Below, one piece after another: positions 52,669 to 64,000 of a stretch of 64,000 nucleotides of DNA (positions are counted from its first letter, which is position 1; every line of letters starts with the position of its first letter). Under the pieces are notes generated by a model. That model did not search any database and was not told the origin of the DNA. It saw nothing but the letters and a program-made list of their open reading frames with translations. Position numbers and translations under genes: made by a program. The stretch comes from a virus. The DNA lies in UHGV virus genome UHGV-0370399, one strand, 5' to 3'.

Positions 52669-53217
52669 ATGAAGAAATTGATTCTAGGTTTGTGCTTAAT
52701 GTTTACAGCACACTTATCTTATGCAGTTGACTGCCCAGAGCTATCAATTAGCCAAAAAGTAAACATGTTAAAAGCTTACCAGTATGGTGAGAATAACATG
52801 GGTAAAGGTTGGGGTATCACTCTAGCTGCTATAGCCTTACAAGAGTCAGAGTTAGGTCTGAAGGTAGAGAATAAAAAGACCCATGACTATGGTATCTTCC
52901 AGAATCACTTGAAGACTGTTGTAAAGCGTAACAAAATTAGTCCTAATGTGGCTAAAAAGAAACTCTTAAAAGACTTTGACTATGCTGCGAAGGAAACTCA
53001 CAAAGAGCTTGAGTTTTGGACAAAGGTGCATGGTCAGCCAAAGTCAAAGAAGACTTTACAAAAAGTTTTAGCATCATATAATGCTGGGTATTCGTACAGA
53101 ATCCCTAAAGCTAAGAAATATTCTCAAGATGTCTATAACAACATGAAAGTTATTGCTCAATGTGAATTTGCAACAAACATTTCTAAGGTAAACCATGAAA
53201 AAATTAAAAAAGTCTGA
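52669..53217 (+). CDS. signal-peptide lytic transglycosylase (SLT domain), endolysin candidate
   Basis: N-terminal MKKLILGLCLMFTAHLSYA signal; catalytic-region motifs QESE, YGIFQ and AYNAGY match the SLT family. Confidence 0.55.
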   Translation: MKKLILGLCLMFTAHLSYAVDCPELSISQKVNMLKAYQYGENNMGKGWGITLAAIALQESELGLKVENKKTHDYGIFQNHLKTVVKRNKISPNVAKKKLLKDFDYAAKETHKELEFWTKVHGQPKSKKTLQKVLASYNAGYSYRIPKAKKYSQDVYNNMKVIAQCEFATNISKVNHEKIKKV

Positions 53218-55938: not shown

Positions 55939-56724
55939 ATGGGTATTGTAAAAATCATCAATGGCGATATCTTTGCTGCATTTGATAAAGGTAAGTTTGA
56001 CATCATTGGTCATGGTTGTAACTGCATGAACCTAATGGGTGCAGGTATCGCTGACAAGATTTCTAAACTTTACCCAAAAGCATATGAGACCGATACAGAA
56101 GTTTATCTCTATGCAGGTGGTATAGGTCATAAACCCTGTGAGAATTTACTAGGTAATTTCTCTGTAGCACGCTTAAAACAAGGTCGTATAGCTAACCTTT
56201 ACACTCAGCTTAAGACTGGTAAAGATGCCCGATACAGTGCTTTAGAGTCATCTTTGAAGCAACTTAACAGATACTGTGAAGTTAATCAGTTGAAGAAAGT
56301 TGGTTTACCTATGATTGGTGCAGGTATCGGTGGACTTGACCCTCAAGCCGTCACAGTTATCATCAATCAGGTGATGAAGAGTGTAGATGTTTATCTATAT
56401 GTCTATGAAGGAGAGATGTACCACAAGTTACTCTCAGGTTGGAAGAACTACTGTGAACCAGAATACTTTGCAGGTGTAGCAGTGTTCACAGATAACGCAG
56501 TTACCCTCTTCAGACGAAGAAAAGGTAAGATACATCAAAGTAACCCTCCGGTTGAAAAGATGTCTCTGAGTAACGCTCTAGTTACCCACCTGTCGAAGAG
56601 CAATCACAGGATTGCAGTAACATTTGGCAGTGATGCAGATACTTATATCTATGCAAGAACTGATGAGGATATCGAGACAGTTTTCTCTTCACCAGAAGTT
56701 ACCTTCTTAGACGCAAAGAACTAA
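55939..56724 (+). CDS. macro-domain (ADP-ribose binding/processing) protein
   Basis: GDIF...DIIGHGCNCMNLMGAGIA and VGLPMIGAGIGGL parallel the macro-domain VNAAN..L.GGGV and glycine-rich loops. Confidence 0.6.
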   Translation: MGIVKIINGDIFAAFDKGKFDIIGHGCNCMNLMGAGIADKISKLYPKAYETDTEVYLYAGGIGHKPCENLLGNFSVARLKQGRIANLYTQLKTGKDARYSALESSLKQLNRYCEVNQLKKVGLPMIGAGIGGLDPQAVTVIINQVMKSVDVYLYVYEGEMYHKLLSGWKNYCEPEYFAGVAVFTDNAVTLFRRRKGKIHQSNPPVEKMSLSNALVTHLSKSNHRIAVTFGSDADTYIYARTDEDIETVFSSPEVTFLDAKN

Positions 56725-56791
56725 GAAACTCTGTAGGATATTCACAATAGCCTAAGCCTTTCTTATCTGGTAAATTTTTCAGGTAAGGAGG

Positions 56792-56975
56792 GCTTTTTCA
56801 TTTCAGAATTGTGCAGGTAGAGTTCTGTAGAGAAATCTGTAGAGAGAATTTTGAACTCCAAAGAGAAAATTCATTTTCAAACTGTGCAGATAATCTCCAA
56901 AGAGCTTTTTCATTTTCAAAACGTGCAGACCACACTCAGGTCGGGCAAGAAAAATCATTTTAGGATTGTGCAGGT
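56792..56975. repeat. four iteron-like copies of a 20 nt motif
   Basis: tcattt(t)cA(g/a)AAtTGTGCAG at about 56799, 56871, 56911 and 56956; tandem tctgtagaga x2 at 56821-56848. Confidence 0.7.
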
Positions 56976-57000
56976 AGGTTTTTATAGAGAGCCAGACCAA

Positions 57001-57153: not shown

Positions 57154-57245
57154 TTGACTCTTTGAACGTGGTTATCTAGTATTTGCATCAACGGGGAGGG
57201 AATGACCTTCCCCACTAAATAAAGTCCTAAACTGGAGATTCAAAA
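57154..57245 (+). promoter_or_regulatory. cassette module A1: promoter, 5' stem-loop and RBS
   Basis: TTGACT-17-TAGTAT, then caacGGGGAGGGaatgaCCTTCCCCactaaataaagtcctaaactGGAGattcaaaaATG. Confidence 0.65.
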
Positions 57246-57629
57246 ATGGCATATCGTGCACCTAAATTCATCAACAAAGACAACTTTCGCAACGCACTGG
57301 AGAAGTCACTTGATGAGAATTTTAAAGGGAATAAAATTGTTGTTCACGCATTCAATTTTAAGTATGATATCAACGGGAATAAAATCAACCACTACACGGC
57401 AACTATGATAGATGGTACGCTTTCAAGCGAAAAAACTATTCTCAATGCACTTGCTGGACGTGGGAAAAACCTGATAAGATGCGATAAGAGACGTTATCAG
57501 GGCGGCGCATATGGTTATGATGATGCTGTCTATCATCTTGAAAATATGGGCTATTCAGTAGAAAAAGTTGGAGCGTCGCAAATCATCGGTAGTGATGGTT
57601 ATGTAACAATCCTCAAAATTAACAAATAA
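57246..57629 (+). CDS. cassette gene 1, hypothetical protein
   Basis: 127 aa; preceded by module A1; last codons (LKINK) lie inside the next module. Confidence 0.5.
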   Translation: MAYRAPKFINKDNFRNALEKSLDENFKGNKIVVHAFNFKYDINGNKINHYTATMIDGTLSSEKTILNALAGRGKNLIRCDKRRYQGGAYGYDDAVYHLENMGYSVEKVGASQIIGSDGYVTILKINK

Positions 57630-57715
57630 AGTACTTTACAAGGGGCTTATAGTTCGATAAAGTAAGCCCCAGATAAAGAGCTTTACCACTAAATCCTAAA
57701 TTGGAGAACTTAAAA
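57630..57715 (+). promoter_or_regulatory. cassette module B1: hairpin overlapping promoter, plus RBS
   Basis: aagtacTTTACA then GGGGCTTA-13 nt-TAAGCCCC hairpin (57642-57670) containing TAAAGT, then agataaagagctttaccactaaatcctaaattGGAGaacttaaaaATG. Confidence 0.6.
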
Positions 57716-58009
57716 ATGGCTATTATCAAAAACGTTGTAATTACCGCAAAGACTCGTGATGACGCTCGTATCATGGCTAAAAAGTTATGCGGGAAAGTGG
57801 TTGACAACGGAAAACAATCTGCTGTAAGGTGGGGCGTGAAGGTTGATAAACAGTTGAAGTTAAAAAATTCACCGATAAACCTTTTTACATGTGTAAACAC
57901 TATCGGGAAGACAAATGTATACACGAAAAAGGCATATATTAGACGCGTAGCATTAACATCCCCCATTCGCACAATGAGAAGTTATGCAAAGCTGAAAATT
58001 AACAAATAA
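57716..58009 (+). CDS. cassette gene 2, hypothetical basic protein
   Basis: ORF-track start is the TTG inside the module; ATG at 57716 follows the conserved GGAG; ends KLKINK. Confidence 0.5.
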   Translation: MAIIKNVVITAKTRDDARIMAKKLCGKVVDNGKQSAVRWGVKVDKQLKLKNSPINLFTCVNTIGKTNVYTKKAYIRRVALTSPIRTMRSYAKLKINK

Positions 58010-58094
58010 AGTACTTTACATGGGGTTTAAAAGTTGATATCTTAAGCCCCAGATAAAGAGCTTTACCACTCAATCCTAAACTGGAGATTCAAAA
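58010..58094 (+). promoter_or_regulatory. cassette module B2
   Basis: TTTACA, hairpin GGGGTTTAA ... TTAAGCCCC (58022-58050), conserved RBS segment. Confidence 0.6.
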
Positions 58095-58607
58095 ATGAAA
58101 ACTGTAGACGCTACCTTTGAAGTTGTAAAAGAAAAATTCACCATTATCTATGAAGCTGTTAATTGCTTTGAAGCAAGTCATAATCTTGACAATTGGAAGT
58201 TTACAGATGACCATCAAGGCGGTGTAACTGTTAAAAATCCTAACTGCCAGCATAATGAATTTAAATATGCAATCCCTTTACATTACAGCCTTAAACAGCT
58301 TTCTAGTGACTATGCAAAACAAGGCCGGGAAAATCCATCAAAAGAGGCTTACGCAAGCTTACAGAAAGAACTAGAAAGAGATTTAGAGGCGTCAGAGTAT
58401 AACCTTGCCGCGAAAGTTGTGGATGCAAACGGTAGCACGGTTTTAGAAAGTTTTTATCTTGGTTATGCTTTCGATTGGTGCTATCGTGACGGCGATGATT
58501 TAGAAGATAGACTAAAAGAAGAGGTGAACAACGCAGACGCAGAATCTGAAGTATTAGAACGTTTGGAATCGTTGAAAGACTCAGTGATGAATATCTTTAA
58601 GAACTAA
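58095..58607 (+). CDS. cassette gene 3, hypothetical acidic protein
   Basis: 170 aa after module B2. Confidence 0.5.
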   Translation: MKTVDATFEVVKEKFTIIYEAVNCFEASHNLDNWKFTDDHQGGVTVKNPNCQHNEFKYAIPLHYSLKQLSSDYAKQGRENPSKEAYASLQKELERDLEASEYNLAAKVVDANGSTVLESFYLGYAFDWCYRDGDDLEDRLKEEVNNADAESEVLERLESLKDSVMNIFKN

Positions 58608-58699
58608 ATAGATTTCTTTACACGGGGTTATCAAGCTGGTATGATAGCCCCAGATAAAGAGATTTATCAAATAAAGCCCTTAAACTAGGAGATTCTAAA
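58608..58699 (+). promoter_or_regulatory. cassette module B3
   Basis: TTTACA-17-TATGAT with hairpin GGGGTTATCA ... TGATAGCCCC (58624-58651); stem sequence covaries relative to B1. Confidence 0.6.
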
Positions 58700-58996
58700 A
58701 TGAAATTATCAAATCAAGTGCGTGAAAATCTAAGCAAATTACTCAACAAAATTGATTTCATTGAAACATCAAGGAATAGTCATGATGTTATGGAATGGTT
58801 ACACGGCAAAATAAAAGGTCGTCGTGTAGTGATTTGCTTATGGAATAGTTGTAGGGAATATAAAAAACCTGTATTGCAAGTCAATATTTATGATGATACT
58901 TTTAAAAGTCCTGTAAAGTCTAAAAGCGATTTATTAGAATCCTATGAGATAACTGTAAATGGCAAAGTATCACGTAAAGAGAAAACACCATGTTAA
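58700..58996 (+). CDS. cassette gene 4, hypothetical protein
   Basis: 98 aa after module B3. Confidence 0.45.
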   Translation: MKLSNQVRENLSKLLNKIDFIETSRNSHDVMEWLHGKIKGRRVVICLWNSCREYKKPVLQVNIYDDTFKSPVKSKSDLLESYEITVNGKVSRKEKTPC

Positions 58997-59322
58997 TGAT
59001 GGGTATCACTGCAATCATTGCCATTATAGCACTTTACAAGGCTTATAGCGCATATACTTTGGCAAGTAAGGCAATCACGCAACAGGTTAACAATAATCTC
59101 GTGATGAGCTTTCTAGAGCGTTTAAGTGATGAGCAAATAAAACGGTTAGAAATGAGCTTCAGATTCCAATCAAAAACTTATCAAATCAGCGACATTTTCA
59201 AAGATGATTTCCAGTTAGTCGATGATTATAACTCTCTGATAAATGCTTTAAATATCAGTGATTTAAAAGATTATCATGCTGTAATTGTTCAAGAATTGAG
59301 CAAACGAAAACAAAACTGTTGA
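58990..59322 (+). CDS. cassette gene 5, membrane-anchored hypothetical protein
   Basis: N-terminal hydrophobic helix; coupled to gene 4 with no module between; stop TGA lies inside the next TTGACA. Confidence 0.45.
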   Translation: MLMMGITAIIAIIALYKAYSAYTLASKAITQQVNNNLVMSFLERLSDEQIKRLEMSFRFQSKTYQISDIFKDDFQLVDDYNSLINALNISDLKDYHAVIVQELSKRKQNC

Positions 59323-59413
59323 CACTGATTTCTAGATAGATTAAATTACTAATCAACGGGGAGGGAATGACCTTCCCCACTAAATAAAGTCCTTAAACTA
59401 GGAGATTCAAAAA
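59319..59413 (+). promoter_or_regulatory. cassette module A2
   Basis: TTGACA-17-TAAATT then the conserved stem-loop leader and GGAG. Confidence 0.65.
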
Positions 59414-59686
59414 ATGTATACTACTAACAACGGTCGCACCTTAAATGTCACCTTGCGTCACTATGTAGACGGTGTGATGTGCTTTGAAGATTTACGGGCT
59501 GAGCAACACATCTTAAATTGGCAAGTTGCAGGACTCCAAAAAACTGCTACCGGATACGGTAAAAAGATTCCAACTAGCTGGAAAGTATACTACGAAGGCC
59601 GTTTGCGTAGAATTTATCAAGATGTACACAGCAATAGCGCAACAAGTTACATCATGGTAAAAGGTAAAAAGCTGCATTTAGTATAA
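59414..59686 (+). CDS. cassette gene 6, hypothetical protein
   Basis: 90 aa after module A2. Confidence 0.45.
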   Translation: MYTTNNGRTLNVTLRHYVDGVMCFEDLRAEQHILNWQVAGLQKTATGYGKKIPTSWKVYYEGRLRRIYQDVHSNSATSYIMVKGKKLHLV

Positions 59687-59772
59687 AGTACTTTACAAGG
59701 GGCTTATAGTTCGATAAAGTAAGCCCCAGATAAAGAGCTTTACCACTCAATCCTAAATTGGAGAACTTAAAA
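59687..59772 (+). promoter_or_regulatory. cassette module B4 (near-identical to B1)
   Basis: About 86 bp direct repeat of 57630-57715, hairpin 59699-59727. Confidence 0.6.
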
Positions 59773-60177
59773 ATGGCTATTAATAACCGTGAATTATCAA
59801 CCTTAAAAGCACGTTTGACCGTTAATCGAATCAACATTATGACATCATCAGCGCCTGATGAGACATTGCACAACATTATCGGAAAGATTCAAAGCGTTAT
59901 TTTAGACGTTGAAAACGTAAAAAATTCATTGGCTGACGTTGCAGCAGGTATCACGCTAGACGGTGCGCAATATGAAATGTCCGACATGTTAGGCAAATCT
60001 AAGGTAATGAATAAAGAGTTAGATTTGAAAATGTTCCGATTTGCTGTTAAAGTGTGGCTATCTGTCGAGTATGATGCTAACTTTGCAATCGCTGACTTTT
60101 TCGCCACTTGGTTGCAGCGTAATTTGACTAATCATGACTTCCGTAATATCTGTGATGCAATTTATGCAGAACTTTAA
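59773..60177 (+). CDS. cassette gene 7, hypothetical protein
   Basis: ATG at 59773 (ORF-track start is the TTG inside the module); N-terminus MAI as in genes 2 and 9. Confidence 0.45.
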   Translation: MAINNRELSTLKARLTVNRINIMTSSAPDETLHNIIGKIQSVILDVENVKNSLADVAAGITLDGAQYEMSDMLGKSKVMNKELDLKMFRFAVKVWLSVEYDANFAIADFFATWLQRNLTNHDFRNICDAIYAEL

Positions 60178-60186
60178 AAAATTTTG

Positions 60187-60278
60187 TTGACACTGATTTT
60201 TAGATAGGTTAAATTACACATCAACGGGGAGGGAATGACCTTCCCCACTAAATAAAGTCCTAAACTGGAGATTCTAAA
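60187..60278 (+). promoter_or_regulatory. cassette module A3
   Basis: TTGACA-17-TAAATT then the conserved stem-loop leader. Confidence 0.65.
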
Positions 60279-60527
60279 ATGATGAATTTTTTAAATATCC
60301 CTGATACTTGCCGACTGTTGACGCAACCAGAAAATTTAGGCAAACCTTTCCTGTACCATATGCCAGACAATACACCAAAAACATATAGCTACACGGTTAA
60401 CCGCTTTACGGGTTACGCTGCAAAAAACGGTTACAAGGTTACTACTCAAAAAGTAACACTATTTACAAATATCGAAGAGCTTCCAACAATCGCTGTAAAA
60501 CTAATATTTACGAAGAAGACGCAATAA
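60279..60527 (+). CDS. cassette gene 8, hypothetical protein
   Basis: 82 aa after module A3. Confidence 0.45.
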   Translation: MMNFLNIPDTCRLLTQPENLGKPFLYHMPDNTPKTYSYTVNRFTGYAAKNGYKVTTQKVTLFTNIEELPTIAVKLIFTKKTQ

Positions 60528-60613
60528 AGTACTTTACAGGGGGCTTGGAAGTTGATATCTTAAGCCCCAGATAAAGAGCTTTACCACTAAATCCTAAACT
60601 GGAGAACTTAAAA
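60528..60613 (+). promoter_or_regulatory. cassette module B5
   Basis: TTTACA, hairpin 60540-60568, conserved RBS segment. Confidence 0.6.
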
Positions 60614-60817
60614 ATGGCTATTATCAACGGCTTACACATTGAAACAACTCACATCAAAGATATTAAAGTTGGTGATGTAGTCCTTTCCCACGGCGTAGAG
60701 AAAACTGTCACTGCAAAGGATATTAAAGAGGATTCTTTCATGGGTAGGACTCTTTTCGGTGATTCTTATTGCTTAGGTTACCTTGCAGTTTTAAAAGTTG
60801 TCAAAAATAACAAATAA
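60614..60817 (+). CDS. cassette gene 9, hypothetical small protein
   Basis: 67 aa; starts MAII; ends KNNK inside the next module. Confidence 0.45.
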   Translation: MAIINGLHIETTHIKDIKVGDVVLSHGVEKTVTAKDIKEDSFMGRTLFGDSYCLGYLAVLKVVKNNK

Positions 60818-60902
60818 AGTACTTTACAAGGGGCTTAAAAGTTGATATCTTAAGCCCCAGATAAAGAGCTTTACCACTAAATCCTAAACTGGAGATTCAA
60901 AA
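60818..60902 (+). promoter_or_regulatory. cassette module B6
   Basis: TTTACA, perfect 9 bp hairpin GGGGCTTAA ... TTAAGCCCC (60830-60858). Confidence 0.6.
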
Positions 60903-61445
60903 ATGAAATGTTTTCACGGTACTACTCAAGAAAATTTCCTCAACCTGATTAATAACGGTGATAAACCATCAGGCGCATGGAATTGTTCGGATATGGACGG
61001 CAATTTTTACGTGTATCCAGAAAATAAAATCTATGGCGACGATGAGGAAGAAATAATCTCTGAAGGTATCCAGCAAGCTCTTGGCAATGCCACTATAACG
61101 GCAGCTTTTCAGATGAAAACTCAAAATATTGTTATCTTGGAACTTGATATTCCAGAGGATGAGTTGAATGATGATTATTCTTGTGATAATATGTCGAGCG
61201 TGGCAAGTTTTACAGAGTATTTTGATATAAGCTGGATTAAAAAGGTTTACATCACTGAATTTAATGCCATGTTTTCACCTTTTTGTCTTCCTTCATTGGA
61301 TAACCCAAATTTAAATTATCTTGATGAGTCTCTGGAGCTTCTTGCTAAAAGTGTTCAACAGTCGGACAGTATTCAGGTTTTTTGTGACATCATGGATACA
61401 CTAACAGGAAACATCACAGAAGAAGATTTAAAGAGCTTTTTCTAA
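60903..61445 (+). CDS. cassette gene 10, hypothetical acidic protein
   Basis: 180 aa after module B6; followed by a terminator. Confidence 0.45.
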   Translation: MKCFHGTTQENFLNLINNGDKPSGAWNCSDMDGNFYVYPENKIYGDDEEEIISEGIQQALGNATITAAFQMKTQNIVILELDIPEDELNDDYSCDNMSSVASFTEYFDISWIKKVYITEFNAMFSPFCLPSLDNPNLNYLDESLELLAKSVQQSDSIQVFCDIMDTLTGNITEEDLKSFF

Positions 61446-61477
61446 AAACCTATGCAATCACCTTATAAACACTAATC

Positions 61478-61497
61478 AGCCCCTCACAGGGGCTTTT
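61478..61497 (+). terminator. intrinsic terminator
   Basis: AGCCCCT cac AGGGGCT followed by TTT; same element as 63577-63598. Confidence 0.6.
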
Positions 61498-61511
61498 AGG
61501 GGGCTTAAATC

Positions 61512-61745
61512 ATGCTAACAACCATTTATCTCATCCTCTCAATTTGTAATGGCCATTCATGTGATTTTAAAGGGCTTGAGGAGTTCACAGGAAGTAAAGA
61601 AAATGCTATTCAAGTTTGCCAGATAGCAAGGCAAGACTACCCCGCAAGTGATGATATTCAGTGTTACTTTAAGACAGAAGATGACGACGGAATCTATTTC
61701 GATAGTGTTGATGGTCAGTATGAAATTATCATTGAAAAAGACTAG
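61512..61745 (+). CDS. cassette gene 11, small protein with hydrophobic N-terminus
   Basis: 77 aa; SD aggggg; stop TAG forms the first bases of the next -35 hexamer. Confidence 0.4.
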   Translation: MLTTIYLILSICNGHSCDFKGLEEFTGSKENAIQVCQIARQDYPASDDIQCYFKTEDDDGIYFDSVDGQYEIIIEKD

Positions 61746-61835
61746 ACAAGCCTGATAAAAATCTGTAAATTGTCAATCAACGGGGAGGGAATGACCTTCC
61801 CCACTAAATAAAGTCCTAAACTGGAGAATCTAAAA
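61743..61835 (+). promoter_or_regulatory. cassette module A4
   Basis: TAGACA-17-TAAATT then the conserved stem-loop leader. Confidence 0.6.
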
Positions 61836-62177
61836 ATGGCTTATGTAACCGTAATTACCGATAAAGCTGGCGCATCTTGGTCAACTCAGGTCAGTGATAA
61901 GATGTCACCTATGCAGTGCCTAAAATACTTTGAACAGTGGAATAAAGGCGAGGACACAAGCCCCTTTCAAGTGATGCAGATTATCCATGTAGACAATGAA
62001 GGGAATAAAACGACACTGAATAGTGAGTACTATGCAAGCCGTTTTGAAACGAGAAGTAAAACAATGAAACTTTTACGTGAATCCGGTTATGCCCATATCG
62101 CCGCGTTAATCTGGGATGACCTGCTAAAAAGTCAGCGTATCAGCTATGTAAAGCCTGAAAAAATATTCATCAGTTAA
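61836..62177 (+). CDS. cassette gene 12, hypothetical protein
   Basis: 113 aa after module A4. Confidence 0.45.
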   Translation: MAYVTVITDKAGASWSTQVSDKMSPMQCLKYFEQWNKGEDTSPFQVMQIIHVDNEGNKTTLNSEYYASRFETRSKTMKLLRESGYAHIAALIWDDLLKSQRISYVKPEKIFIS

Positions 62178-62209
62178 TCAATAACTTATAAAAAACTTTT
62201 AAAAAAGTG

Positions 62210-62238
62210 TTGACAATACCCATTGACATTGGTAACTT
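62210..62238 (+). promoter_or_regulatory. orphan sigma70-like promoter
   Basis: TTGACA-17-TAACTT with a second TTGACA inside the spacer; no ORF before the next module. Confidence 0.45.
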
Positions 62239-62307
62239 TGTTCGAGGGGGTTTATCTAAAAGGGATTCACTTAAAAGATTTCTTTATAGATAAGCTTAAA
62301 AAATTGC

Positions 62308-62429
62308 TTGCAATCAGATATCAAAACAAGTAAATTACTAATCAATGGGGAGGGAATGAACTTCCCCACTAAACAAAGCCCTTAAACTAGGAGATTCTAA
62401 AATTCAACTACATCCGTTCAATTCATGTC
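62308..62429 (+). promoter_or_regulatory. cassette module A5 (degenerate; start codon displaced)
   Basis: TTGCAA-17-TAAATT with stem-loop variant GGGGAGGGaatgaaCTTCCCC; the usual ATG position reads aaaattc and the gene ATG is 30 nt further. Confidence 0.5.
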
Positions 62430-62915
62430 ATGTCAAAGCCTGTTAAAGATACCTATGAATTCCGTTGTAATGGGGTACACTTTGCAACCATCACTAAGTC
62501 AGAAAACGGGGCTTATTATGTACATCGTCGTAATGTTGCAACCGTTGTAGTCTCTCACTTTATGCAAGCTGTAGCGGAATTATTACCGTTATTCTTAGAG
62601 ATTTACTTAGATGAGTGTAAAAACGTTCACAACCACGTTAAAAACCTTTTAAACGGTTATAAAATGGCTTATGAACGTTCTATTAAGTCACTGAATAAGT
62701 TTTACAATGCACCTGCAAATACTGTTTCAATGGCTTATGATGTAAACGGTGAGTTAGTTAGCCTCTTCGAAGTGGAAGGAATTAAGCTGTATAATTTACG
62801 TCCTAGCGGTTACTCTAAGACTCTTGGTGAAGGTTTATCCTTTAATATCAAGAACTTAGAAAAAACTTTAAAAGACATTGAAAAAGATATTGACGAGACA
62901 CTTAAAAGTCTGTAA
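62430..62915 (+). CDS. cassette gene 13, hypothetical protein
   Basis: 161 aa; ATG far from the module SD; stop TAA lies inside the next -10 hexamer. Confidence 0.4.
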   Translation: MSKPVKDTYEFRCNGVHFATITKSENGAYYVHRRNVATVVVSHFMQAVAELLPLFLEIYLDECKNVHNHVKNLLNGYKMAYERSIKSLNKFYNAPANTVSMAYDVNGELVSLFEVEGIKLYNLRPSGYSKTLGEGLSFNIKNLEKTLKDIEKDIDETLKSL

Positions 62916-62981
62916 ATTGTCAATCAACGGGGAGGGAATGACCTTCCCCACTAAGTAAAGTCCTAAACTGGAGTTATCAAG
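62890..62981 (+). promoter_or_regulatory. cassette module A6
   Basis: TTGACG-17-TAAATT then the conserved stem-loop leader. Confidence 0.6.
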
Positions 62982-63245
62982 ATGGAAAACGTAGAATTAA
63001 CCACACTTTTACAAATTGCAACCGACAAAGAAAACGTAGCTTTATTTCACCGCATCGAAAGTGATTTGTTCAATGGTGAAATCATCAAAGAGTCTTACGA
63101 GGTTGTTGGATTCAAAGATGGTAAAACATTTGGATTCTTTGACCTCGAAAAAGGCAACGCTGTTACAAAATATGATGTTTTATCTTGTGAGATTCTTACA
63201 AAATACAATGAAAAAAGGCTTGCAACATACGCCAATATGCAGTAA
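62982..63245 (+). CDS. cassette gene 14, hypothetical protein
   Basis: 87 aa; stop TAA coincides with the -10 TAAATT of the next module. Confidence 0.45.
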   Translation: MENVELTTLLQIATDKENVALFHRIESDLFNGEIIKESYEVVGFKDGKTFGFFDLEKGNAVTKYDVLSCEILTKYNEKRLATYANMQ

Positions 63246-63311
63246 ATTACTAATCAACGGGAGGCGATAACCTCCCCACTAAATAAAACCCTTAAACTAG
63301 GAGATTCAAAA
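63220..63311 (+). promoter_or_regulatory. cassette module A7 (stem-loop with compensatory changes)
   Basis: TTGCAA-17-TAAATT; leader hairpin GGGAGG cgataa CCTCCC replaces GGGGAGGG aatga CCTTCCCC while keeping base-pairing. Confidence 0.6.
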
Positions 63312-63725
63312 ATGGCAACTATCCGCGCTACTGTTAACGAGTTCGGTTTTTCCTCTCTGGATGTTAAATTTGACATTGCAGGCACTGATAACGCCTTTGA
63401 AATGGTGAAAGGTCTTATCAGTCAGACCATCAAAGACTATAATCCTTCTGATGAGTTCTGGAAAGAAACAAAACAGGAAGTTCTCAAAGAGGGTTATTCT
63501 TATCACTATTGGGGTGAAAAAATTGTCTCTCTGTACTACGACAAAGAAGGCACTATAGCCTCAGATACCTTTATACAGCCCCTCATAGGGGCTTTTTTAC
63601 GTCTATCCAATCCTTATACAATCCCTTTCCCTCACCTTTCCAGAATCTTATCAGACCTTAAAAGCAATAACTCTATAGTCTACTCTATAACCTCTTATCA
63701 AATCAACTTAAATAAAAGCCAATAA
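63312..63725 (+). CDS. cassette gene 15, hypothetical protein (3' end uncertain)
   Basis: 137 aa ORF after module A7; a terminator-like hairpin lies inside it about 130 nt before the stop. Confidence 0.4.
   Translation: MATIRATVNEFGFSSLDVKFDIAGTDNAFEMVKGLISQTIKDYNPSDEFWKETKQEVLKEGYSYHYWGEKIVSLYYDKEGTIASDTFIQPLIGAFLRLSNPYTIPFPHLSRILSDLKSNNSIVYSITSYQINLNKSQ
63577..63598 (+). terminator. terminator-like hairpin embedded in the last cassette ORF
   Basis: AGCCCCT cat AGGGGCT followed by TTTTT. Confidence 0.5.
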
Positions 63726-63943
63726 CCCCAGAAAGGGGATGGCCCATTTAAACGCTCTATAAAGCTCTATAACAGCCTTATCAACCTAACTTAAGGGATT
63801 GCATTAACCTATCTTAAAAAGCTCTTTACAGGGCTTTATAGAGGCTTAAAAGAATCTTATAAGGGTGTAAGCTTATAGGCTGGTTAGTATCTTGTGAATG
63901 GTTAAACAACCCCCTTGCTAGTCACTAAAAAGCATGTTATAGG

Positions 63944-64000
63944 GGCTATAAAGTTACTTCAAAGTTACGTAAAAAAGGCTATAAAGTTACTTCAAAGTTA
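63944..64000. repeat. tandem 33 bp repeat truncated by the window edge
   Basis: ggctataaagttacttcaaagtta at 63944 and 63977 separated by cgtaaaaaa; CTATAAAG-like motifs also at 63764-63784 and 63834-63845. Confidence 0.7.

What the first reader, a model, noticed from the sequence alone, without database searches (positions are those of the whole stretch)
63246..63311. Compensatory base changes in the type-A leader hairpin indicate a selected RNA structure
Seen in sequence: six type-A leaders carry GGGGAGGG-aatga-CCTTCCCC (8 bp stem with one G-U). The seventh copy (63258-63277) has GGGAGG-cgataa-CCTCCC: both arms changed but pairing is preserved as a perfect 6 bp stem. Type-B hairpins show the same behaviour (GGGGCTTA/TAAGCCCC versus GGGGTTATCA/TGATAGCCCC at 58624-58651). 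Inference: the stem-loop at the 5' end of each transcript is under structural selection, for example as an mRNA 5' stabiliser, translational operator or protein-binding site, rather than being a passive repeat.
Basis: partly seen in the sequence, partly recalled or inferred. Interest (0 to 1): 0.6.

Follow-up and report, generated by a model that had tools for sequence, protein, structure and literature searches.

The report
Stem-loops in phage early-promoter cassettes
The hairpins are real, conserved parts of a repeated promoter-hairpin-ribosome-site cassette in front of each small early gene of a Felix O1-like phage; T4-like phages have the same design ("PeSL" cassettes), so this extends a known idea.

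Summary
The window is a Felix O1-like phage (Felixounavirus). Positions 57.1-63.7 kb hold about 15 small genes of unknown function. Thirteen are preceded by one of two repeated cassettes: a sigma70-type promoter, a G-run/C-run stem-loop, a Shine-Dalgarno site and ATG.

The described hairpins exist. One of the six "identical" type-A copies carries a pair-breaking mismatch. The seventh differs by one-sided changes and a slip in the G run, not by classic double substitutions.

Across 65 related loci (207 type-A copies, 31 arm pairs) nearly all copies can still fold. Formal covariation for type A is weak because the stem is low-complexity.

Type B is different. Its hairpin is really a 21-bp structure enclosing the whole promoter (-35 to about +14). 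It shows clear covariation across three genera and many G·U pairs, which points to sense-strand RNA. It cannot be the 5' end of its own transcript.

Gene gain and loss among relatives breaks at the cassettes. The cassettes are close analogues of the PeSL (promoter-early stem-loop) cassettes of T4-type phages, not yet reported for this subfamily.

The type-A hairpin starts 10-11 nt after the -10 box. It is most likely a 5'-terminal mRNA stabiliser; this is inferred, not shown.

The parts
57154..57248 (+). Type-A cassette 1: -35 TTGACT 57154-57159, -10 TAGTAT 57177-57182, hairpin 57193-57213, GGAG 57234, ATG 57246. It is the first cassette of the array and lies behind the terminator at 56754-56795.
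59319..59416 (+). Type-A cassette 2: -35 TTGACA 59319, -10 TAAATT 59342-59347, hairpin 59358-59378, ATG 59414.
60187..60281 (+). Type-A cassette 3: -35 TTGACA 60187, -10 TAAATT 60210-60215, hairpin 60226-60246, ATG 60279.
61743..61838 (+). Type-A cassette 4: -35 TAGACA 61743, -10 TAAATT 61766-61771, hairpin 61782-61802, ATG 61836.
62308..62432 (+). Type-A cassette 5 (defective): -35 TTGCAA 62308-62313, -10 TAAATT 62331-62336, hairpin 62347-62367. C->A at 62360 breaks the closing pair, ATCAAT replaces ATCAAC, and the canonical ATG is lost (AAAATTCAAC). The first in-frame ATGs are at 62425 and 62430.
62890..62984 (+). Type-A cassette 6: -35 TTGACG 62890, -10 TAAATT 62913-62918, hairpin 62929-62949, ATG 62982.
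63220..63314 (+). Type-A cassette 7 (the flagged copy): -35 TTGCAA 63220-63225, -10 TAAATT 63243-63248, hairpin GGGAGG/CCTCCC 63259-63276 with loop CGATAA, ATG 63312.
57627..57718 (+). Type-B cassette 1: long hairpin 57627-57685 enclosing -35 TTTACA 57635-57640 and -10 TAAAGT 57658-57663. Inner arms are GGGGCTTA and TAAGCCCC. ATG 57716.
58007..58097 (+). Type-B cassette 2: long hairpin 58007-58065, -35 at 58015, -10 TATCTT, ATG 58095.
58609..58702 (+). Type-B cassette 3 (variant arms GGGGTTATCA/TGATAGCCCC and outer helix TAGATTTCTTTA/TAAAGAGATTTA): long hairpin 58609-58666, -35 at 58617, -10 TATGAT, ATG 58700.
   Evidence: (z = -5.15)
59684..59775 (+). Type-B cassette 4: long hairpin 59684-59742, -35 at 59692, ATG 59773.
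60525..60616 (+). Type-B cassette 5: long hairpin 60525-60583, -35 at 60533, ATG 60614.
60815..60905 (+). Type-B cassette 6: long hairpin 60815-60873, -35 at 60823, ATG 60903.
57246..63725 (+). Array of about 15 small + strand ORFs of unknown function carried between the cassettes.

Best explanation
The hairpins are the stem-loop component of repeated early-gene cassettes, each built from:
- an AT-rich stretch;
- a sigma70-type promoter;
- a G-run/loop/C-run stem-loop;
- a conserved leader with GGAG;
- ATG.
Thirteen of the ~15 small genes of unknown function in a variable region of this Felix O1-like phage sit directly behind such a cassette. This is the architecture described as PeSL (promoter-early stem-loop) cassettes in T4-type phages, here in an unrelated subfamily (Ounavirinae).

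Shown here:
- The cassettes are the points where gene content differs between relatives.
- Pairing is maintained while arm and loop sequences change.
- The tolerated non-Watson-Crick pairs are G·U on the sense strand, so the structure acts as sense RNA.

Inferred for type A: the hairpin begins 10-11 nt after the -10 box, so about 2-4 nt from the 5' end of the cassette's own mRNA. There it most likely acts as a 5'-terminal stem-loop that shields the triphosphate end from RppH and from 5'-end-dependent RNase E. That would prolong the life of early mRNAs.

Inferred for type B: the 21-bp hairpin encloses its own promoter and forms only in RNA read through from upstream. It probably insulates neighbouring cassettes by attenuation, processing or 3'-end protection.
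For: Identity and context:
- The window is a Felixounavirus.
- All tested array ORFs fall in PHROG families of unknown function and have no Pfam match.

Promoters:
- Consensus-like sites sit at a fixed place in every cassette.
- In type B, TTTACA and the T, A and T of TAnnnT are invariant or nearly so, while the middle of the -10 varies.
- In all 148 unique type-A contexts a TAnnnT box ends 10 nt (134 cases) or 11 nt (14 cases) before the hairpin. In 146 of them a -35-like hexamer is present, nearly always 17 nt upstream of the -10 box.

Structure, type B:
- 21 pairs, 91.9% of cells paired against 86.9% in shuffles (0/500 reach it).
- Covariation 0.146 against 0.067 (0/500).
- Slid controls at most 56% paired.
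- Pair 18-44 is GC:45 and UA:13 with none unpaired. Pair 5-57 is GC:47 and UA:7. Pair 25-38 shows five pair types.

Structure, type A:
- 207 copies, 58 hairpin variants and 31 arm pairs, nearly all foldable.
- Native arms average -9.29 kcal/mol against -7.46 for swapped arms (0/20000 as stable).
- Among single-step variants there are 8 loop substitutions, 3 that keep a pair and 3 that break one. P=0.0017 for so few breaks.
- The first cassette of the array carries GGGC/GCCC, GGGA/TCCC or GGGGC/GCCCC in different phages.
- That first cassette sits behind a strong terminator (56754-56795) yet keeps a hairpin. This argues for a role in its own transcript.

Strand:
- Type-B stems contain 107 G·U pairs against 15 A·C.
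- The sense strand folds better than the antisense in 47/58 type-B and 39/46 type-A variants.

Shuffling: 41 of 51 synteny break ends lie in cassettes that cover 25% of the array, P about 1e-16.

Prior knowledge:
- PeSL definition and terminator test: PMC2839356.
- 5' stem-loop stabilisers: Emory, Bouvet and Belasco 1992, listed in the reference list of PMC3997798.
Against: - No transcription start or RNA half-life data exist for any Felix O1-like phage in the searched literature. The 5'-terminal position is only a prediction.
- The covariance-model alignment of type A shows no excess pairing (81.8% vs 80.7%, 44/500).
- With arm length matched, the arm-swap advantage is small: -9.29 vs -8.79 kcal/mol, 314/20000.
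- Single-step stem substitutions break a pair as often as they keep it (3 vs 3).
- About 4 in 100 type-A-like cassettes have no hairpin. Some have only 3-4 bp (Felix O1 first cassette GGGC...GCC).
- In the Erwinia relatives the G/C hairpin encloses the -10 box, upstream of the predicted start. A 5'-end role therefore cannot be the common function of all these hairpins.
- Copies are related by duplication and probably by gene conversion (87 of 207 share the canonical arm pair GGGGAGGG/CCTTCCCC, and most of those have the canonical AATGA loop). Counts are not independent events.
Confidence: 0.55

Rival explanations
1. Attenuator or insulator only. Every hairpin, type A included, acts solely on RNA polymerase or RNA arriving from upstream cassettes. 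It reduces read-through, or it creates a protected 3' end. This is what was proposed and reporter-tested for PeSL stem-loops in RB49/phi1. The 5'-terminal position of type A would then be incidental.
For: - A PeSL stem-loop reduced lacZ expression like rrnB T1, and PeSL stem-loops occupy five different positions relative to the promoter (PMC2839356).
- In this family the hairpin also sits at different places. It lies after the start (type A), around the whole promoter (type B), around the -10 box, or with -35 in its loop (Erwinia phages).
- Some records annotate these hairpins as terminators.
Against: - None of the type-A or type-B hairpins is followed by a U tract. The terminator scan picks up other sites, not these.
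- The first cassette lies behind a strong intrinsic terminator and a 350-nt non-coding stretch, yet it keeps a hairpin in every phage examined.
- The spacing to the -10 box is fixed at 10-11 nt in 148/148 contexts, although shared ancestry could explain that.
Confidence: 0.22
2. Type B only: the 21-bp interrupted hairpin is an RNase III-type processing site in polycistronic early RNA, like the sites between phage T7 early genes. Cleavage would leave a hairpin-protected upstream mRNA. The downstream RNA would begin close to where the cassette's own promoter starts.
For: - A lower helix of 12 positions (one usually mismatched), a 3x3 internal loop and an upper helix of 9-10 bp are conserved in all 58 unique sequences from three genera.
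- Folding z-scores are -2.2 to -5.2.
- The 3' side of the internal loop (AGA) coincides with the predicted start, the A of AGATAAAG.
- What T7 RNase III sites look like is taken from memory, not tested here.
Against: - There is no cleavage data.
- No Rfam family matches.
- The helix is at the short end for RNase III.
- Type-A stems of 6-8 bp are too short, so this cannot explain the flagged feature.
Confidence: 0.12
3. Passive repeat. The inverted repeat persists only because the whole cassette is copied and homogenised by recombination. Any G run pairs with any C run, so pairing survives without selection on structure.
For: - The type-A covariance-model alignment shows no excess pairing, and a control slid by 2 columns pairs even better (95% on fewer cells).
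- 87 of 207 copies share the canonical arm pair GGGGAGGG/CCTTCCCC.
- The seventh copy differs by one-sided changes only.
Against: - Type-B covariation beats every one of 500 shuffles and all slid controls.
- Type-A substitutions concentrate in the loop, and pair-breaking ones are rare and confined to rare variants of 1-2 copies.
- There are 31 different arm pairs, and native partners fit best.
- Different stems occur at the same cassette position in different genera.
Confidence: 0.08
4. DNA-level element. The palindrome would serve as a cruciform or recombination hotspot, or as a symmetric binding site for a dimeric regulator, rather than as RNA.
For: - Synteny breaks are concentrated in the cassettes.
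- PeSL mini-circle crossovers mapped in or next to the stem-loop (PMC2839356).
- Type-B inverted repeats flank the promoter symmetrically.
Against: - G·U is common and A·C is rare in the stems (107 vs 15), and the sense strand folds better than the antisense. Neither is expected for duplex-DNA symmetry.
- Half-site sequences and loops are not conserved.
Confidence: 0.06

Closest known systems
PeSL (promoter-early stem-loop) cassettes of T4-type phages: RB49/phi1, T4/PST, KVP40/nt-1 (Arbiol et al. 2010, PMC2839356; Comeau et al. 2014, PMC4122927)
   Same: - A sigma70-like early promoter with an AT-rich upstream region.
- A stem-loop of G run-loop-C run type, placed at variable positions relative to the -35 and -10 boxes.
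- A Shine-Dalgarno site and ATG at the 3' end.
- Many copies flanking small genes of unknown function in a variable region.
- Gene gain, loss and replacement between close relatives occurs at the cassettes.
   Different: - A different phage subfamily (Ounavirinae). BLAST matches to the cassettes are confined to Ounavirinae, apart from a few records named for other hosts that were not examined.
- The commonest class here (type A) has the hairpin inside the transcribed leader, at about +3. The five PeSL positions described all end before the transcription start.
- The type-B structure extends to 21 bp and encloses the whole promoter.
- Terminator activity and mini-circle formation are untested here.
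5'-terminal stem-loop mRNA stabilisers of E. coli: ompA and papA leaders (Emory, Bouvet and Belasco 1992; Bouvet and Belasco 1992; Bricker and Belasco 1999; all listed in the reference list of PMC3997798)
   Same: A stable hairpin of 6-8 bp, mostly G-C, lies within a few nucleotides of the predicted 5' end. The loop sequence is unimportant. The host uses RppH and RNase E 5'-end-dependent decay.
   Different: The 5' end here is predicted, not mapped, and no half-life data exist. The hairpin is part of a mobile repeated cassette rather than a single gene's leader.
RNase III processing sites between phage T7 early genes (from memory)
   Same: Intercistronic hairpins in a run of early genes transcribed by host polymerase. 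Type B has upper and lower helices separated by an internal loop.
   Different: Type A is far too short. Type B overlaps a promoter, which T7 sites do not. There is no cleavage evidence.
Lambda nut boxB and other antitermination hairpins
   Same: A small promoter-proximal RNA hairpin in phage early transcripts, with a 5-nt loop in the canonical type-A copy.
   Different: The loop sequence and length are not conserved, there is no boxA-like partner, and no Rfam match was found.

Membership tests
PeSL cassette | sigma70-like early promoter inside the repeat | tested here: met
   Consensus matches sit at the same place in all 13 cassettes. The TTTACA and TAnnnT positions are invariant across 46-58 variants. 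TAnnnT plus a -35-like hexamer occurs in 146/148 type-A contexts. This is sequence evidence only; no promoter activity was measured.
PeSL cassette | stable stem-loop, often polyG...polyC, at a variable position relative to the promoter boxes | tested here: met
   Type A lies after the -10 box, type B spans -35 to about +14, and the Erwinia relatives have it around -10 or with -35 in the loop.
PeSL cassette | Shine-Dalgarno site and start codon of the downstream gene at the 3' end | tested here: met
   GGAG followed by ATG in 12 of 13 window cassettes; cassette 5 has lost its ATG.
PeSL cassette | flanks small genes of unknown function in a variable region, and gene content changes at the cassettes | tested here: met
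   The ORFs tested fall in PHROG families of unknown function and have no Pfam match. 41/51 synteny break ends lie in cassettes, P about 1e-16.
PeSL cassette | the stem-loop terminates or attenuates transcription | not testable with these tools
   No U tract follows the hairpins. This needs a reporter assay or Term-seq.
PeSL cassette | recombination between cassettes yields mini-circles | not testable with these tools
   Needs inverse PCR on infected cells.
PeSL cassette | member of the T4-type phages, or sequence homology to their PeSLs | tested here: not met
   The host genome is Ounavirinae. Cassette matches are essentially restricted to Felixounavirus, Mooglevirus and Kolesnikvirus. This makes it an analogue in a new lineage, as the T4/PST and KVP40/nt-1 sets are to RB49.
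5'-terminal stem-loop mRNA stabiliser | hairpin within a few unpaired nucleotides of the mRNA 5' end | tested here: inconclusive
   The hairpin starts 10-11 nt after the -10 box in 148/148 contexts, which predicts 2-4 unpaired nucleotides. No start site has been mapped.
5'-terminal stem-loop mRNA stabiliser | removing the pairing shortens mRNA half-life | not testable with these tools
   Needs a rifampicin chase of wild-type, stem-disrupted and compensatory leaders.
Intrinsic (Rho-independent) terminator | G+C-rich hairpin followed directly by a U-rich tract | tested here: not met
   Type A is followed by ACTAAATAAAG and type B by AGATAAAG or CCACTAAAT. The scan finds terminators elsewhere (56754, 63577) but not at the cassettes.
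nut/boxB-type antitermination site | conserved loop sequence and an adjacent boxA | tested here: not met
   Loops vary in sequence and in length from 4 to 9 nt. No Rfam match even at E<=1.
RNase III processing site | about 20 bp or more of mostly double-stranded RNA | tested here: inconclusive
   Type A: 4-8 bp, not met. Type B: 21 pairs with an internal loop, which is compatible. Cleavage is untested.

The most novel reading that the evidence does not exclude
The type-B element is an RNA device built around a promoter. A 21-bp sense-strand hairpin encloses a complete sigma70 promoter. It would be cut or would stop polymerase in read-through RNA, so that processed and primary transcripts of the downstream gene share nearly the same 5' end. 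Each cassette would then be expressed as an insulated single-gene unit whatever lies upstream. Together with the type-A 5' hairpin, this would make the cassettes self-contained, portable expression units for newly acquired genes.
Probability: 0.2. Interest if true: 0.55.

Novelty: new member of a known kind. Interest (0 to 1): 0.35.

Why it matters
Felix O1-like phages are widely used for Salmonella typing, biocontrol and therapy, yet their early transcription is essentially uncharacterised. The genome papers list these elements only as "direct repeats".

Recognising them as promoter-hairpin-RBS cassettes has three consequences:
- It explains how the variable early region gains and loses genes.
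- It predicts start sites and leaders for about 13 early genes per genome.
- It gives a compact, naturally modular promoter + 5' hairpin + RBS unit that could be tested as an expression part.

It also shows that the PeSL design evolved, or spread, outside the T4-like phages.

Tried and rejected
1. RegB idea. An Erwinia relative annotates a 'T4 RegB endoribonuclease' next to its polynucleotide kinase gene, and every cassette contains GGAG. The equivalent window ORF (52669-53217) gives only a sub-threshold SLT transglycosylase match and no RegB match. Dropped.
2. Rfam. Nothing was found at gathering score in the whole window or at E<=1 in the array.
3. Intrinsic terminator, nut/boxB and RNase III for type A. 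All were rejected on anatomy (see the membership tests).
4. Mini-ORF. The canonical hairpin contains GGAGG followed by ATG ACC TTC CCC ACT AAA TAA. The ATG is absent from variants with AATAA, CGATAA or GAGA loops, so this is chance.
5. Alternative pairing of the 3' arm (CCUCC) with the downstream GGAG. The Mooglevirus GGGGC/GCCCC stems cannot do this, so it is not conserved.
6. A first IMG/VR scan with a loose gapped pattern returned mostly chance hits. A stricter 18-mer worked.
7. A MAFFT alignment of type-A hairpins was out of structural register. The covariance-model alignment gave no covariation signal because of register slips in the G and C runs. My own table indexed on each sequence's minimum-free-energy fold is descriptive only, since pairing is built in.
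8. Literature searches found no start-site or transcriptome data for Felix O1-like phages. The wV8 paper says nothing about the repeats.

Full report
**What the window is.** Positions 56.7-64 kb match about 260-300 Felix O1-like phages (Felixounavirus) at around 90% identity, but in pieces. The region is the early, rightward-transcribed block that follows the macro-domain phosphatase gene (55939-56724) and a strong intrinsic terminator (56754-56795). It holds about 15 small ORFs. None of those tested has a Pfam match, and all ten tested against PHROGs fall in families of unknown function.

**Checking the observation.**
- GGGGAGGGAATGACCTTCCCC occurs exactly five times (57193, 59358, 60226, 61782, 62929).
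- A sixth copy at 62347 has a C->A change at 62360 that breaks the loop-closing pair. No matches are expected by chance.
- The seventh copy is GGGAGG-CGATAA-CCTCCC at 63259-63276.

So the hairpins are real. The 'compensatory' label for the seventh copy is too strong. The Felix O1 copy at the same position is GGGGAGG-CGATAA-CCTCCCC. The differences from the canonical copy are a U->C change (G·U to G-C), loss of the closing pair, and a one-base deletion in the G run. All are one-sided changes that a G-run/C-run stem absorbs. The allele is shared with other phages at that position.

**Anatomy of the cassettes.**

*Type A (7 copies)* reads:
- TTGACA-like hexamer, 17 nt, TAAATT or TAGTAT;
- 10 nt ending in ATCAAC;
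- the hairpin;
- ACTAAATAAAGTCCTAAACTGGAG, then 8-9 nt (e.g. ATTCAAAA), then ATG.

*Type B (6 copies)* reads:
- TAAAGTAC, then TTTACA;
- 17 nt, then TAnnnT;
- 6-7 nt, then AGATAAAGAGCTTTACCACTAAATCCTAAACTGGAG and, 7-9 nt further on, ATG.

In type B the -35 hexamer and the T, A and T of the -10 box are invariant or nearly so across 46-58 variants, while the middle of the -10 varies. That is the signature of a real sigma70 promoter. The GGGG.../...CCCC arms lie in the spacer and across the end of the -10 box.

TAAAGU pairs with GCUUUA, and CUUUA pairs with UAAAG. These outer helices extend the hairpin to 21 pairs with a 3x3 internal loop. It runs from the upstream gene's stop codon to about +14 of the cassette's own transcript. 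Such a hairpin cannot be at the 5' end of the RNA started at that promoter. It forms only in read-through RNA.

In type A, all 148 unique promoter contexts have a TAnnnT box ending 10 nt (134) or 11 nt (14) before the first stem base. This predicts 2-4 unpaired nucleotides at the mRNA 5' end.

**Comparative data.** I collected the early regions of Felixounavirus, Mooglevirus (Citrobacter and Shigella hosts) and Kolesnikvirus (Erwinia host) genomes, plus IMG/VR contigs.

*Type B.* The set holds 87 copies: 46 unique cores and 58 unique extended sequences. On a plain MAFFT alignment, counting against the 21-pair structure gave:
- 91.9% of cells paired against 86.9% after shuffling partners (0/500 shuffles reach it);
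- covariation 0.146 against 0.067 (0/500);
- at most 56% paired when partners are slid by 1-3 columns;
- pair 18-44: GC in 45 sequences, UA in 13 (the Erwinia phages), never unpaired;
- pair 5-57: GC:47, UA:7;
- pair 25-38, which involves the fifth base of the -10 box: five pair types.

*Type A.* The set holds 207 copies, 58 hairpin variants and 31 distinct arm pairs. Nearly all fold at the same place. Stems include GGGGAGGG/CCUUCCCC, GGGAGG/CCUCCC, GGGAAG/CUUCCC, GGGGGA/UCCCCC, GGGGAG/CUCCCC, GGGGC/GCCCC, GGGGU/GCCCC, GGGC/GCCC and GGGA/UCCC. Loops range from GAAA to AAGAUAGAA.

The formal evidence for type A is weaker:
- A covariance-model alignment shows no excess pairing (81.8% vs 80.7%). 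Any G pairs with any C, and the arms slip in register.
- Swapping 3' arms among the 31 pairs costs 1.8 kcal/mol on average (0/20000 swaps as stable).
- With arm length matched the cost is only 0.5 kcal/mol (314/20000 as stable).
- Among variants one step apart there are 8 loop substitutions, 3 stem substitutions that keep a pair through G·U, and 3 that break one.
- Breaks equal keeps, but breaks are about three times rarer than neutral expectation (P=0.0017). They occur only in rare variants (1-2 copies each).
- About 4% of type-A-like cassettes have no hairpin at all.

**RNA or DNA?** In the type-B stems G·U or U·G occurs 107 times against 15 A·C or C·A. The sense strand folds more stably than the antisense in 47/58 type-B variants and 39/46 type-A variants. 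This fits a structure used as sense-strand RNA. It does not fit a duplex-DNA palindrome or an antisense element.

**Recombination.** I aligned the window's array to ten Felixounavirus relatives. Of 51 alignment ends inside the array, 41 fall within a cassette (±15 nt), although cassettes cover 25% of the array (P about 1e-16). For example, the 82-codon gene at 60279-60527 is missing from eight of the ten relatives, and in five of them the matching segments stop at 60281 and resume at 60588, inside the flanking type-A and type-B cassettes.

**Comparison with what is known.**
- The Felix O1 genome paper lists a 57-bp and a 39-bp 'direct repeat', which are the type-B and type-A promoters, without interpretation (PMC3185647).
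- The wV8 record labels them DR_1 to DR_9, and the wV8 paper does not discuss them.
- The AYO145A record annotates a predicted promoter upstream of two of the array genes.
- The design matches the PeSL cassettes of the T4-type phages RB49 and phi1 almost point for point. Those have a sigma70-like promoter with an AT-rich upstream region. [quoted passage not shown] SD and ATG lie at the 3' end. They flank small orphan genes of unknown function in hyperplastic regions, show terminator activity in a lacZ test and recombine into mini-circles (PMC2839356; PMC4122927).
- Only four phage or virus papers in the library mention PeSLs, and a term search of the two defining PeSL papers found no mention of Felix O1-like phages.
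- BLAST matches to the cassettes are confined to Ounavirinae, apart from a few records named for other hosts that I did not examine. Type B occurs in 289 records and type A in 250, with none of the type-A records from Erwinia phages.

So this is an analogue of PeSL cassettes in a new lineage.

**Mechanism.**

*Shown:* repeated promoter cassettes; maintained pairing; sense-strand bias; breakpoints at the cassettes.

*Inferred:* the type-A hairpin sits 2-4 nt from the 5' end of its own mRNA, the position at which E. coli 5' stem-loops (ompA, papA) are reported to block 5'-end-dependent decay (from memory; the primary papers appear in the reference list of PMC3997798). Three observations support a role in its own transcript:
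- the first cassette keeps a hairpin even though it lies behind a terminator;
- the loops are free to vary;
- the spacing to the -10 box is fixed.

Against this being the only role, type-B hairpins lie upstream of or across the predicted start, as do the Erwinia hairpins that enclose the -10 box. For those, attenuation, processing or 3'-end protection of read-through RNA is the likelier function, as proposed for PeSLs. No U tract follows any of them.

**Verdict.** The element is a new member of a known kind and is of modest interest.

Noticed in passing
window 56798-56990: Three to four imperfect direct repeats (e.g. TCATTTCAGAATTGTGCAGGTAG..., CTCCAAAGAG...TTCATTTTCAAA.TGTGCAGA) fill the roughly 350-nt non-coding stretch between the terminator at 56754-56795 and the first early promoter. 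Function unknown; they could be iterons or a regulator-binding array.
   Followed up: partly
window 63600-64000: A non-coding region after the array is rich in CTATAAAG-like motifs. It contains two exact 24-nt copies of GGCTATAAAGTTACTTCAAAGTTA, 33 nt apart (63944-63967 and 63977-64000), running off the window end. In records such as BPS17L1 the deposited sequence ends about 200 nt beyond the matching region, so this may lie near the physical genome end or terminal repeat.
   Followed up: partly
window 62339-62432: Type-A cassette 5 looks degraded. ATCAAT replaces ATCAAC, the closing pair is broken (62360), and the canonical start codon is lost (AAAATTCAAC where relatives have AAAATGAAC). This leaves ATGs at 62425 and 62430 without a matching SD. 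It is either a decaying gene or a sequence error.
   Followed up: partly
window 63312-63725: The last ORF of the array reads through the terminator hairpin at 63577-63593 and is 137 codons long. Its homologue in phage Barry is 249 nt and stops before the terminator. This suggests a frameshift or a sequencing error.
   Followed up: no
L124 (Erwinia phage phiEa104) 10422-10470, 11074-11120 and 11378-11425; same in L128 and L138: Kolesnikvirus promoters carry G/C hairpins in other registers. GAGGGG-TTAAAAT-CCCCTC has the -10 box as its loop, with GGGGG/CCCCC as a compensated variant in phage M7. GGGGC-TTTACA-GCCCC-TTTT is a terminator whose loop is the -35 box of the next promoter.
   Followed up: partly
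L124 1-499 (phiEa104 P104_00070) and window 52669-53217: The phiEa104 record calls the gene upstream of the polynucleotide kinase gene 'predicted T4 endoribonuclease RegB'. The ORF at that position in the window gives only a weak SLT transglycosylase match, and the Sf14 record notes a lysozyme-like domain. The RegB label looks doubtful.
   Followed up: partly
window 57201-57221 and the other canonical type-A hairpins: The canonical hairpin contains GGAGG followed two bases later by a six-codon ORF (ATG ACC TTC CCC ACT AAA TAA). The ATG is missing from hairpin variants with other loops, so it is probably chance.
   Followed up: yes
window 61478-61500: A terminator-like hairpin (AGCCCCTCACAGGGGCT, then TTTAG) sits in the middle of the array. 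It is followed by a gene (61512-61745) that has no cassette of its own. Phage Barry annotates a terminator at the same place.
   Followed up: no
L123 9095, L127 8715, L129 9613: Some Mooglevirus cassettes have the type-A promoter and leader but no hairpin. One (L123 9095...tatcaaGCCCacttcc) keeps only the 3' arm, as if a deletion between ATCA(G)A and the AATCAA loop had removed the 5' arm.
   Followed up: partly
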